DNA of 64,000 bases from Escherichia coli. GTDB lineage: Bacteria > Pseudomonadota > Gammaproteobacteria > Enterobacterales > Enterobacteriaceae. A model generated the notes under the pieces. The model was given only the letters and a program-made list of their open reading frames with translations, searched no databases and was not told the DNA's origin. The stretch lies in the NCBI RefSeq assembly GCF_001677475.2, contig NZ_CP015229.1; one strand, written 5' to 3'. How positions within the stretch are numbered: the first letter of the stretch is position 1; every line of letters starts with the position of its first letter. The position numbers and the translations under genes are program-made. Positions 52,037-54,973 of this stretch are shown in pieces.

Positions 52037-52915
52037 TTACAGCAAACCGGCATGCTTAAGCGCCGCTCTGACCGTCTCACGACCACTGTCGGTGATTGGT
52101 GTCATTGGCAGGCGCAGCGTATCGGTCGCCACAAGACCCAGTTCCTTACATGCCCATTTCACCGGGATTGGATTGGGTTCGACAAATAGTTTGTTGTGTA
52201 ATGGCATCAGACGCTGATTAATAACGCGTGCCTCGGCAAAATGCCCTTCTGCTGCCAGTTTGCACATCTGGGCCATATCACGCGCTGCGACGTTAGCCGT
52301 AACGGAAATAACCCCATGACCGCCTAATTGCATGAAGTCCAGCGCGCTCGCATCATCGCCGCTCAGCAGAACAAAATCATCTGAAACCAGCTCTTTGATC
52401 TGGTTTACACGCGTTAAGTTCCCTGTTGCCTCTTTGATTCCGATAATATTTTTTACTTTCGCCAGACGGCCCACCGTTTCCGGGAGCAGATCGCAGCCAG
52501 TACGGGACGGCACATTATACAGAATTTGCGGCAGGTCAGTATGTTCAGCGATGGCTTTGAAATGCTGATACAAACCTTCTTGCGACGGACGATTGTAGTA
52601 AGGGGTTACCGTCAGGCAGCCGACGATACCACTGTCATTGAAGCGCTGCGTCAGGCTAATGGCTTCCGCAGTAGCGTTAGCGCCGGTCCCGGCAATCACC
52701 GGAATGCGCCCGTCAGCCAGCTCCAGCGTCATCATCACCACATCAGCATGTTCGTCATGATTTAAGGTAGCGGACTCGCCAGTGGTGCCAACAGAAACGA
52801 TCGCCGAAGTACCGCTGGCGACATGATAATCAATCAGTTTTTTCAAGCTAGCCCGACAGACATTACCTTTTTCATCCATCGGAGTAACAATCGCGACAAT
52901 ACTTCCCGTGAACAT
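52037..52915 (-). CDS. dapA: 4-hydroxy-tetrahydrodipicolinate synthase
   Basis: 292 aa from [19 protein letters not shown]; matches DapA. Confidence 0.95.
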
Positions 52916-53060
52916 GGGCCATCCTCTGTGCAAACAAGTGTCTCAATGGTACGTTTGGTATGGCATTAAAAGCAAGCAGACAGAACCGTTCTGATTGTTG
53001 TATGCATGTTTTTTTTATGCTTTCCTTAAGAACAACTCACCCATTAAAGGAATAACCAGT

Positions 53061-53633
53061 TTGACACTGTCATCGCAACATTATCTGGTGATCACTGCGT
53101 TGGGTGCCGATCGCCCTGGAATTGTGAACACCATCACCCGTCATGTCAGTAGTTGCGGCTGTAATATTGAAGACAGTCGCCTGGCGATGCTGGGAGAAGA
53201 GTTCACGTTTATTATGCTGCTTTCCGGTTCATGGAATGCCATTACTCTGATTGAATCAACGTTACCGTTGAAAGGTGCCGAGCTGGATCTTTTAATCGTG
53301 ATGAAGCGCACGACGGCGCGTCCGCGTCCGCCAATGCCAGCATCTGTCTGGGTTCAGGTCGATGTGGCAGACTCCCCGCATTTAATTGAACGCTTCACAG
53401 CACTTTTCGACGCGCATCATATGAACATTGCGGAGCTGGTGTCGCGCACGCAACCTGCTGAAAATGAACGGGCTGCGCAGTTGCATATTCAGATAACCGC
53501 CCACAGCCCCGCATCTGCGGACGCAGCAAATATTGAGCAAGCATTCAAAGCCCTATGTACAGAACTCAATGCACAAGGCAGTATTAACGTCGTCAATTAT
53601 TCCCAACATGATGAACAGGATGGAGTTAAGTAA
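53061..53633 (+). CDS. gcvR: Glycine cleavage system transcriptional repressor (tandem ACT domains); TTG start
   Basis: 190 aa from (TTG)TLSSQHYLVITALGADRPGIVN; aagga lies 7 nt upstream of the TTG. Confidence 0.8.
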   Translation: MTLSSQHYLVITALGADRPGIVNTITRHVSSCGCNIEDSRLAMLGEEFTFIMLLSGSWNAITLIESTLPLKGAELDLLIVMKRTTARPRPPMPASVWVQVDVADSPHLIERFTALFDAHHMNIAELVSRTQPAENERAAQLHIQITAHSPASADAANIEQAFKALCTELNAQGSINVVNYSQHDEQDGVK

Positions 53634-54103
53634 TGAATCCACTGAAAGCCGGTGATATCGCACCGAAATTTAGCTTGCCGGATCAAGACGGAGAACAAGT
53701 TAATTTGACCGACTTCCAGGGACAGCGTGTTCTGGTTTATTTCTACCCGAAAGCCATGACCCCCGGCTGTACCGTACAGGCCTGCGGCTTACGCGATAAC
53801 ATGGATGAGTTGAAAAAAGCGGGCGTTGATGTGCTGGGTATCAGCACCGATAAACCCGAAAAACTCTCCCGTTTTGCGGAAAAAGAGCTGCTTAACTTTA
53901 CGCTCCTGTCTGATGAGGACCACCAGGTGTGCGAACAATTCGGCGTCTGGGGTGAAAAGTCCTTCATGGGCAAAACCTACGATGGTATTCATCGCATCAG
54001 CTTCCTGATTGACGCTGATGGCAAAATCGAACATGTCTTTGACGATTTCAAAACCAGCAATCACCACGACGTTGTGCTGAACTGGCTGAAAGAACACGCC
54101 TGA
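53633..54103 (+). CDS. bcp: Thiol peroxidase / bacterioferritin comigratory protein (peroxiredoxin)
   Basis: 156 aa with peroxiredoxin active site (PGCT); matches Bcp; start overlaps the gcvR stop. Confidence 0.95.
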   Translation: MNPLKAGDIAPKFSLPDQDGEQVNLTDFQGQRVLVYFYPKAMTPGCTVQACGLRDNMDELKKAGVDVLGISTDKPEKLSRFAEKELLNFTLLSDEDHQVCEQFGVWGEKSFMGKTYDGIHRISFLIDADGKIEHVFDDFKTSNHHDVVLNWLKEHA

Positions 54104-54314: not shown

Positions 54315-54355
54315 ATATGAAATGCAATGTTTCATATCATTTTCAAGGAGCCGAC

Positions 54356-54973
54356 ATGAACCGCTTTGTGGTGGCCGAACCACTGTGGTGTACAGGATGT
54401 AATACCTGTCTCGCTGCCTGTTCGGACGTGCATAAAACGCAAGGTTTACAGCAACACCCGCGCCTGGCCCTGGCGAAGACGTCAACACTCACTGCCCCTG
54501 TCGTGTGTCATCACTGTGAGGAAGCCCCTTGCCTGCAGGTCTGCCCGGTCAATGCCATCTCCCAGAGGGATGATGCGATCCAACTCAACGAAAGCCTCTG
54601 TATTGGCTGCAAGCTTTGCGCCGTGGTCTGCCCATTTGGCGCAATCAGCGCTTCAGGAAGCCGTCCGGTGAATGCCCCTGCGCAATATGTTTTTCAGGCT
54701 GACGGCTCACTCAAAGACGGCGAAGAAAACGCGCCGACCCAACATGCTTTGCTGCGCTGGGAACCGGGTGTCCAGACCGTCGCGGTGAAATGCGACCTGT
54801 GTGATTTCTTGCCAGAAGGTCCGGCCTGCGTTCGCGCTTGCCCGAATCATGCGTTACGGCTGATCACCGACGATAGCCTGCAACGTCAGATGAAAGAAAA
54901 ACAGCGCCTTGCCGCAAGCTGGTTTGCCAATGGCGGGGAGGATCCCCTTTCCCTCACTCAGGAGCAACGCTAA
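54356..54973 (+). CDS. hyfA: Hydrogenase 4 ferredoxin-type subunit (4Fe-4S)
   Basis: 205 aa from MNRFVVAEPLWCTGCNTCLAAC with several Cys clusters; matches HyfA. Confidence 0.92.
   Translation: MNRFVVAEPLWCTGCNTCLAACSDVHKTQGLQQHPRLALAKTSTLTAPVVCHHCEEAPCLQVCPVNAISQRDDAIQLNESLCIGCKLCAVVCPFGAISASGSRPVNAPAQYVFQADGSLKDGEENAPTQHALLRWEPGVQTVAVKCDLCDFLPEGPACVRACPNHALRLITDDSLQRQMKEKQRLAASWFANGGEDPLSLTQEQR

What the first reader, a model, noticed from the sequence alone, without database searches (positions are those of the whole stretch)
53061..53063. gcvR appears to start at a TTG codon
The only in-frame start that gives the conserved GcvR N-terminus (TLSSQHYLV...) with a plausible ribosome-binding site (aagga, 7 nt upstream) is TTG. 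The upstream ATG of the six-frame ORF would add 22 non-conserved residues and has no Shine-Dalgarno. A TTG start implies low translational efficiency for this repressor.
Basis: partly seen in the sequence, partly recalled or inferred. Interest (0 to 1): 0.2.

Follow-up and report, generated by a model that had tools for sequence, protein, structure and literature searches.

The report
gcvR starts at conserved TTG codon
The E. coli glycine-cleavage repressor gene gcvR does begin at the weak start codon TTG, as reference annotations already record, so this is a correct but ordinary finding.

Summary
The window is E. coli (bamC, dapA, gcvR, bcp, hyf). The TTG at 53061-53063 is in frame with GcvR. 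RefSeq places the gcvR start on it in all four E. coli records I checked, including K-12 MG1655 (b2479, 190 aa).

Evidence for this start:
- The curated GcvR family model aligns end to end from residue 1 of the TTG protein.
- The same TTG is present in 85 of 85 sampled species from five Enterobacterales families, while only 1 of 38 fourfold-degenerate sites in the gene is invariant.
- An AGGA Shine-Dalgarno core sits 9 nt upstream in 77 of 79 loci.
- In 25 of 79 species an in-frame stop leaves TTG as the only possible start.
- The upstream segment carries indels that are not multiples of three.
- A published E. coli map puts the main transcription start 27 nt upstream (53034), which is downstream of the alternative upstream start.

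The codon at 52995 is TTG, not ATG, and no in-frame ATG or GTG lies upstream. The Shine-Dalgarno spacer is 9 nt, not 7.

The TTG start is clade-specific: Budvicia has GTG, and Photobacterium and Pseudaeromonas have ATG. Limiting the amount of repressor made is a plausible purpose but was not tested here.

Verdict: already known, low interest.

The parts
53061..53063 (+). TTG initiation codon of gcvR
   Evidence: Read directly. It is the RefSeq CDS start in MG1655 and three other E. coli records. It is invariant in 85 of 85 sampled Enterobacterales species.
53061..53633 (+). gcvR coding sequence: 190 codons plus TAA, encoding a tandem ACT-domain protein
   Evidence: NCBIfam NF008612 scores 398 bits against a cutoff of 267 and aligns 1-189/189. 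Pfam finds ACT_6 and ACT. PDB 1u8s aligns from residue 6.
53047..53051 (+). Shine-Dalgarno sequence AAGGA, 9 nt before the TTG
   Evidence: Read directly. An AGGA core at a 9-nt spacer occurs in 77 of 79 aligned species: 75 directly, plus 2 where a second, closer AGGA was counted instead.
53034..53034 (+). Main transcription start site of gcvR, giving a 27-nt 5' UTR
   Evidence: Kim et al. 2012, PMC3415461, supplementary file 2: TSS 2597901 for a CDS starting at 2597928. The printed upstream sequence ends ...CCTTAAGAACA, which places it at window 53034.
52962..52962 (+). Second gcvR transcription start site, with fewer reads, giving a 99-nt 5' UTR
   Evidence: Same table: TSS 2597829. The printed upstream sequence ends ...GTTTGGTATG.
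52997..53026 (+). Nearly invariant block GTTGTATGnnnGTTTTTTTTATGCTTTCCT at -37 to -8 of the main TSS; presumed core promoter
   Evidence: Alignment of 79 species. Which hexamers act as -35 and -10 was not resolved, and the consensus scan found no strong sigma-70 match on the + strand.
52992..53000 (+). In-frame stop TGA followed by TTG TTG: the unused upstream 'start' of the six-frame ORF
   Evidence: Read directly. It lies upstream of the main TSS. Its frame relative to gcvR is not conserved: the distance from the conserved block to the start is 37, 38, 39, 40, 42 or 50 nt.
53631..53635 (+). TAATG: the gcvR stop overlaps the bcp start by one base
   Evidence: RefSeq coordinates show gcvR ending and bcp starting on the same base.

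Best explanation
The TTG at 53061-53063 is the real and only significant initiation codon of gcvR.

The main mRNA starts at 53034. A 30S ribosomal subunit pairs with AAGGA (53047-53051) and places initiator tRNA on the UUG 9 nt downstream. The product is the 190-residue tandem ACT-domain protein GcvR.

The 22 codons of open frame upstream are the gcvR promoter and 5' UTR, and they stay open by chance.

Inferred, not shown: the weak UUG, together with a weak constitutive promoter, keeps GcvR scarce. GcvR acts by binding GcvA directly, so its dose matters. That would explain why TTG has not drifted to ATG or GTG within the core Enterobacterales.
For: Annotation and domain fit:
- RefSeq starts gcvR at this codon in MG1655 (b2479, 2599906..2600478) and in three other E. 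coli records, including the most divergent match found.
- NCBIfam NF008612 aligns 1-189/189 from residue 1. The 212-aa version matches only from residue 23.
- Pfam ACT_6 begins at residue 7 of the 190-aa protein, and PDB 1u8s aligns from residue 6.

Comparative data:
- TTG is invariant in 80 of 80 Enterobacteriaceae species loci.
- It is also present in Yersiniaceae, Dickeya, Erwinia, Edwardsiella and Leclercia.
- Only 1 of 38 fourfold-degenerate sites is invariant over the same 84 loci.
- In 25 of 79 species an in-frame stop leaves TTG as the sole ATG/GTG/TTG before the conserved HYLVITALG.
- The distance from the conserved promoter block to the TTG differs by amounts that are not multiples of three in 24 of 79 loci.
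- Purely synonymous variation begins right after the TTG: codon 7 is CAC in 41 loci and CAT in 39.
- An AGGA core sits at a 9-nt spacer in 77 of 79 loci.

Transcript and expression level:
- The published main TSS is 27 nt upstream of the TTG, downstream of the upstream TTGs.
- PgcvR is described as a low-level constitutive promoter, citing Ghrist & Stauffer 1998.
- UUG starts about 3% of E. coli genes. The three canonical start codons initiated at 10-100% of AUG in reporters.
Against: - I could read no direct N-terminal sequence or initiating-ribosome footprint for GcvR. The held supplements of the TetRP and TRAINSPOTTER papers do not mention gcvR, and no supplements are held for the Ribo-RET preprint.
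- The primary paper, Ghrist & Stauffer 1998 (PMC107093), is not held.
- A second TSS at 52962 gives a transcript that does contain the upstream TTGs, so a trace of a longer isoform is not formally excluded.
- The dosage argument rests on conservation statistics from a single nucleotide (about 1 in 38 by chance) and on general knowledge of UUG strength.
- Distant homologues use ATG or GTG, so a weak start is not intrinsic to GcvR function.
Confidence: 0.95

Rival explanations
1. Translation starts at the upstream TTG (52995 or 52998), giving a 212- or 211-residue GcvR, as some public Salmonella and Klebsiella records annotate.
For: The frame is open from 52995 in E. coli. NCBI-sourced proteins of 211-212 aa beginning MLYAGFFYAFL... 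exist for Salmonella and Klebsiella oxytoca. The transcript from the second TSS at 52962 would contain these codons.
Against: - The main TSS (53034) lies downstream of them.
- No Shine-Dalgarno sequence precedes them.
- Their frame relative to gcvR is not conserved. Within Escherichia alone, indels of 1 and 4 nt occur.
- In 25 species an in-frame stop intervenes.
- The extension lies outside the GcvR family model and the ACT domain.
- The conservation of this DNA is explained by its promoter position.
Confidence: 0.02
2. Translation starts downstream at GTG 53088 (Val10), and the TTG is merely an internal leucine codon position in a 5' UTR.
For: GTG at 53088 is an in-frame potential start. One gene call in the database begins at LVITALG (P0097).
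Against: - His7 and Leu9 are invariant in a 14-sequence protein alignment, while codon 7 varies only synonymously, CAC 41 / CAT 39. These codons are therefore translated.
- No Shine-Dalgarno sequence precedes 53088.
- The ACT_6 domain and PDB 1u8s align from residues 6-7.
- The conserved AGGA is positioned for the TTG, not for the GTG.
Confidence: 0.01
3. TTG is the start, but its invariance is not selection for weak translation. Position 53061 would instead be constrained by something else, such as local mRNA context, or simply not have mutated.
For: - Only one nucleotide (T1) is informative, and about 1 in 38 neutral sites is also invariant.
- The bases just upstream (GGTTTG) are also well conserved.
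- Distant GcvR homologues work with ATG or GTG.
Against: - No significant local RNA structure (z = -1.15) and no Rfam family match.
- A weak promoter and a weak start codon occur together, which fits low dosage.
- From memory, not verified here: overproduction of GcvR super-represses gcvT-lacZ.
Confidence: 0.3

Closest known systems
E. coli K-12 gcvR (b2479, NP_416974.4; WP_000176187.1 in other strains), glycine cleavage system transcriptional repressor
   Same: Same gene, same neighbours (dapA divergent, bcp overlapping) and same annotated TTG start. The 851-nt region is 99.9% identical.
   Different: One base differs in the 5' UTR: 53043 is A where the other E. coli genomes have C. No coding difference from WP_000176187-type proteins was examined beyond that.
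E. coli genes with documented UUG starts, such as ftsH and the new UUG sites confirmed by lacZ fusions in the TetRP study (PMC4909307)
   Same: A UUG initiation codon with a Shine-Dalgarno sequence. It belongs to a small class: 81 UUG starts were annotated in K-12 before that study, about 3% of E. coli genes.
   Different: gcvR does not appear in that paper's held supplements. It was already annotated at TTG in the table of Kim et al. 2012 (CDS 2597928-2598500).
Weak start codons used to limit regulator dosage: cya UUG, lacI GUG, infC AUU (recalled from the literature, not checked here, apart from infC AUU, which mentions)
   Same: A non-AUG start on a regulatory protein needed in small amounts. 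Changing the start to AUG raises expression in those systems.
   Different: For gcvR I could not read any measurement of a TTG-to-ATG change. No autoregulatory loop like that of infC is known or suggested here.
Vibrio cholerae putative GcvR (PDB 1u8s), and the Photobacterium and Pseudaeromonas GcvR homologues
   Same: The same tandem ACT architecture and the same dapA / gcvR-bcp neighbourhood.
   Different: About 43% identity, with an N-terminus 2-4 residues shorter. The Photobacterium and Pseudaeromonas loci read here have an ATG start. The V. cholerae DNA was not examined.

Membership tests
GcvR (NCBIfam NF008612 / PRK11589 equivalog) | Full-length match above the curated cutoff | tested here: met
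   398.4 bits against a cutoff of 267. Protein residues 1-189 align to profile positions 1-189 of 189.
GcvR (NCBIfam NF008612 / PRK11589 equivalog) | Two tandem ACT domains | tested here: met
   Pfam ACT_6 (E = 2.7e-26) and ACT (E = 1e-7). PDB 1u8s, a putative GcvR, matches at E = 3.7e-39.
GcvR (NCBIfam NF008612 / PRK11589 equivalog) | Conserved neighbourhood: divergent from dapA, followed by bcp | tested here: met
   Seen in the window, in RefSeq, and in relatives out to Photobacterium and Pseudaeromonas.
GcvR (NCBIfam NF008612 / PRK11589 equivalog) | Binds GcvA and responds to glycine to repress gcvTHP and gcvB | not testable with these tools
   Known from the literature for the identical K-12 protein: Ghrist et al. 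2001 and Heil et al. 2002, as cited in PMC9299463.
Genes initiating at UUG | An in-frame TTG at the 5' edge of the conserved coding signal | tested here: met
   Synonymous-only variation begins downstream of the TTG. The region upstream shows indels that are not multiples of three, and in-frame stops.
Genes initiating at UUG | A Shine-Dalgarno sequence at functional spacing | tested here: met
   AAGGA lies 9 nt upstream, and an AGGA core at that spacing is conserved in 77 of 79 loci.
Genes initiating at UUG | The start codon lies on the mRNA and competing upstream starts do not | tested here: met
   The published main TSS is at 53034, 27 nt upstream. The upstream TTGs at 52995 and 52998 are absent from that transcript.
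Genes initiating at UUG | Direct evidence of initiation: N-terminal sequence, initiating-ribosome footprint or start-codon mutagenesis | not testable with these tools
   Nothing was found in the held supplements, and the 1998 primary paper is not held.

The most novel reading that the evidence does not exclude
The TTG start may be an actively maintained dosage limiter. It would have been fixed in the ancestor of the core Enterobacterales (Enterobacteriaceae, Erwiniaceae, Pectobacteriaceae, Yersiniaceae, Hafniaceae) after an ATG or GTG ancestral state, and held by purifying selection ever since. Together with a weak constitutive promoter, it would set the GcvR:GcvA ratio. A TTG-to-ATG change would then lock gcvTHP and gcvB in the repressed state.
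Probability: 0.5. Interest if true: 0.25.

Novelty: already known. Interest (0 to 1): 0.08.

Why it matters
It matters little beyond annotation quality. The start is already correct in RefSeq E. coli records.

The practical value is as a clean comparative proof. It shows that the 195-212-residue GcvR entries in public records for Salmonella, Klebsiella oxytoca, Kluyvera, Serratia, Yersiniaceae and Edwardsiella are over-extended into the promoter and 5' UTR.

The deep conservation of a weak start codon on a repressor that acts by binding its partner is a small, tidy example of translational dosage control. One point mutation would test it.

Tried and rejected
- **Primary paper.** I tried to read Ghrist & Stauffer 1998 (J Bacteriol 180:1803) by DOI and by PMC107093. 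It is not held. What I recall of it (a UUG start and a main TSS 27 bp upstream) is memory only, although the TSS figure matches.
- **Literature searches.** 'gcvR' with UUG, TTG or 'start codon' returned nothing relevant.
- **Direct initiation evidence.** The held supplements of the TetRP paper (PMC4909307) and TRAINSPOTTER (PMC13245402) have no gcvR entries. No supplements are held for the Ribo-RET preprint. Thomason 2015 is not held.
- **Promoter scan.** The sigma-70 consensus scan of 52850-53150 found no + strand promoter. I therefore did not assign -35 and -10 hexamers. TTGTAT at -36..-31 and TATGCT at -18..-13 are conserved, but they are only 12 nt apart.
- **Regulatory RNA.** Rfam gave no match in 52800-53800 at E <= 1. 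The fold of 53034-53110 is not unusual, z = -1.15. A riboswitch or leader explanation was dropped.
- **Upstream start at 52995/52998 and downstream GTG at 53088.** Both were considered and rejected; see the rival explanations.
- **Terminator reading.** I considered whether the hairpin and T8 run upstream form a terminator. The stem next to the T-run exists in some genera (Phytobacter, Pseudescherichia) but not in E. coli, and no + strand gene lies upstream. I did not pursue it.

Full report
**What is there.** The window is Escherichia coli chromosome carrying bamC, dapA, gcvR, bcp and hyfA-B. An 851-nt slice around the finding matches 5,425 of 5,426 complete E. coli genomes at 95-99.9% identity, over gcvR, dapA and bcp.

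Reading 52800-53800 directly:
- TTG is at 53061-53063, followed by ACA CTG TCA TCG CAA CAT TAT CTG GTG, which is (M)TLSSQHYLV.
- The frame runs to TAA at 53631-53633.
- The six-frame ORF begins 22 codons upstream at 52995. That codon is TTG, followed by a second TTG at 52998 and preceded by the in-frame stop TGA at 52992-52994.
- The two nearby ATGs (53002 and 53006) are out of frame. No in-frame ATG or GTG lies upstream of 53061.

**Annotation.** RefSeq places the gcvR CDS start on this TTG in every E. coli record I checked:
- K-12 MG1655: b2479, 2599906..2600478, 573 nt, NP_416974.4.
- Strain elppa4.
- Strain CU39ES-1.
- Strain Nord8, the most divergent E. coli match found.

The curated NCBIfam equivalog for GcvR (NF008612, 189 positions) aligns positions 1-189 to residues 1-189 of the TTG-initiated protein. 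It aligns to residues 23-211 of the 212-aa extended version. Pfam ACT_6 begins at residue 7 of the 190-aa protein, and a second ACT domain follows. The solved putative GcvR of Vibrio cholerae (PDB 1u8s) aligns from query residue 6. The 22 extra codons lie outside every model.

**Comparative test.** A scan of one genome per species returned 80 loci, nearly all Enterobacteriaceae at 83-99% protein identity.
- *Invariance of TTG.* The codon six positions before the conserved HYLVITALG is TTG in every locus; in Pluralibacter gergoviae it is seven positions before, because of a one-codon insertion. Leclercia NCTC13032 also has the TTG but carries a downstream frameshift.
- *Neutral background.* Among sites that are fourfold degenerate in the same genes, 34 of 42 show all four bases and only 2 of 42 are invariant. 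With four more families added the count is 1 of 38. The first base of TTG could change to A or G and still give a start codon, so its invariance is unlikely under neutrality (roughly 3%).
- *Coding signal.* It begins immediately downstream. Codon 7 is CAC in 41 loci and CAT in 39, always His. Codons 2-6 vary without changing the reading frame; the only indel is that one-codon insertion.
- *Upstream region.* It behaves as non-coding. The distance from a nearly invariant upstream block to the TTG is 37, 38, 39, 40, 42 or 50 nt, and 24 of 79 loci differ from the majority frame. Within Escherichia itself there are indels of 1 and 4 nt in a poly-C tract.
- *Sole possible start.* In 25 of 79 loci an in-frame stop leaves TTG as the only ATG/GTG/TTG available.
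- *Shine-Dalgarno.* An AGGA core sits 9 nt before the TTG in 77 of 79 loci.

**How far the TTG reaches.** The same AGGAAG, 9-nt spacer and TTG arrangement is present in:
- a Yersiniaceae genome, where the public annotation instead picks an ATG six codons upstream that overlaps the Shine-Dalgarno sequence;
- Dickeya zeae;
- Erwinia;
- Edwardsiella hoshinae, where the public annotation starts inside the promoter block.

Budvicia aquatica (68% identity) has GTG at the equivalent position. Photobacterium, Pseudaeromonas and an unnamed marine relative (about 43% identity) have ATG. TTG is thus a derived state that is stably kept in the core Enterobacterales. It is not a universal property of GcvR.

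**Transcript evidence.** Supplementary file 2 of Kim et al. 2012 (PLoS Genet, PMC3415461) lists two E. coli transcription start sites for gcvR.
- The first is at 2597901, 27 nt upstream of the CDS start 2597928. The printed upstream sequence ends ...CCTTAAGAACA, which is window 53034.
- The second is at 2597829, 99 nt upstream, which is window 52962.

The read-count column gives 27 for the first and 17 for the second. The transcript from 53034 does not contain the upstream TTGs at 52995 and 52998, which excludes them as its start.

The invariant block GTTGTATGnnnGTTTTTTTTATGCTTTCCT (52997-53026) lies at -37 to -8 of that start site. That position explains why the 'extension' looks conserved when translated (MLYAGFFYAFL... 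in Salmonella and Klebsiella records). A consensus sigma-70 scan finds nothing on this strand. This fits the description of PgcvR as a 'low-level constitutive promoter' in PMC2615304, which cites Ghrist & Stauffer 1998.

I could not read that 1998 paper. My recollection that it reports a UUG start and a main start site 27 bp upstream is memory only. The 27-nt figure is independently reproduced.

**Mechanism.**
- *Shown:* the position of the start codon, the Shine-Dalgarno sequence, the transcript 5' end and the family membership.
- *Inferred:* UUG pairs imperfectly with initiator tRNA, so GcvR is made at a lower rate than an AUG would give. In reporter assays AUG, GUG and UUG form the top group, initiating at 10-100% of AUG. 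UUG starts about 3% of E. coli genes (Hecht et al. preprint). Only 81 UUG starts were annotated in K-12 before 2016 (PMC4909307).
- *Dosage argument:* GcvR works by binding GcvA, and glycine disrupts the complex (titles of Ghrist 2001 and Heil 2002). Its amount relative to GcvA should therefore matter. A weak promoter plus a weak start codon, with the start codon held invariant across 85 species, fits selection for low dosage. No measurement of a TTG-to-ATG change for gcvR was available to me.
- *No leader RNA:* nothing suggests a regulatory RNA. There is no Rfam match and the fold of the initiation region is not unusual, z = -1.15.

**Rivals.**
- *Upstream TTG start.* Contradicted by the main TSS, the lack of a Shine-Dalgarno sequence, the frame-breaking indels and in-frame stops in relatives, and the domain boundaries.
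- *Downstream GTG (53088, Val10).* Contradicted by invariant His7 and Leu9 in a 14-sequence protein alignment, with synonymous codon variation at codon 7, and by the placement of the conserved AGGA.
- *Trace of a longer isoform from the 52962 transcript.* Cannot be formally excluded, but nothing supports it.
- *Whether TTG invariance reflects dosage selection or another constraint.* This remains open. It rests on one nucleotide.

**Comparison with what is known, and verdict.** This is the annotated start of a well-studied E. coli gene, and UUG starts are a familiar minority class. Its description of the upstream codon as ATG and of the spacer as 7 nt is not.

- Novelty: already known.
- Interest: low.
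- Modest by-products: (a) comparative proof that many public GcvR entries of 195-212 aa are over-extended, and (b) the observation that TTG is clade-specific and deeply conserved.

Noticed in passing
window 53043: The window has A where K-12 and strain elppa4 have C (CCCATTAAAGG versus CCCCTTAAAGG), 4 nt upstream of the Shine-Dalgarno sequence in the gcvR 5' UTR. No genome among 5,425 complete E. coli genomes matches the 141-nt query perfectly (best 140/141), so this base appears private to the source strain or is a sequencing error. The site lies in a poly-C tract that varies in length among Escherichia species.
   Followed up: partly
window 53631-53635: The gcvR stop and the bcp start overlap by one base (TAATG), which suggests translational coupling. 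The dapA / gcvR-bcp arrangement is kept out to Photobacterium and Pseudaeromonas, though the overlap itself varies. Kim et al. 2012 also list a weak TSS for bcp inside gcvR, at about window 53223.
   Followed up: partly
window 52981-52993: A small palindrome (CAGAAC-C-GTTCTG) lies between the divergent dapA and gcvR promoters. Its sequence differs among genera but stays palindromic, for example CCTGAGG..CCTCAGG in Enterobacter and CTGAAG..CTTCAG in Kluyvera. This looks like compensatory change. It lies in the 5' UTR of the 52962 gcvR transcript. Its function is unknown.
   Followed up: partly
window 52997-53026, and proteins P0002, P0009, P0061, P0105, P0115: Many public GcvR records are extended 5-22 residues upstream into the promoter or 5' UTR, for example Salmonella and Klebsiella oxytoca at 211-212 aa, Yersiniaceae at 195 aa and Edwardsiella at 200 aa. 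The likely cause is that gene callers prefer an ATG or the longest ORF over the TTG. These look like start-site misannotations.
   Followed up: yes
window 52913-52939 (- strand): The six-frame dapA ORF starts at TTG 52933, but RefSeq starts dapA at ATG 52915. Kim et al. 2012 put the dapA TSS 24 nt upstream of that ATG, at about window 52939. A conserved TTGCTT, 18 nt, TACCAT promoter-like pair precedes it on the minus strand.
   Followed up: partly
window 54317-54358: The hyfA six-frame ORF begins at ATG 54317, but RefSeq annotates the start 13 codons downstream at ATG 54356 (MNRFVVAEPLW...).
   Followed up: no
protein P0030: A 331-aa 'hypothetical protein' attributed to the fungus Astraeus odoratus is 89% identical to E. 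coli GcvR and carries AhpC-TSA/Redoxin domains. It looks like a GcvR-Bcp fusion call, most likely enterobacterial contamination in a fungal assembly.
   Followed up: no
L075 (Leclercia adecarboxylata NCTC13032) about 1470-1560: gcvR keeps the AGGAAG, 9 nt, TTG arrangement but has a frameshift just after codon 11 (GTTATTCACTGCGCTGGG). This is either an assembly indel or a pseudogene.
   Followed up: no
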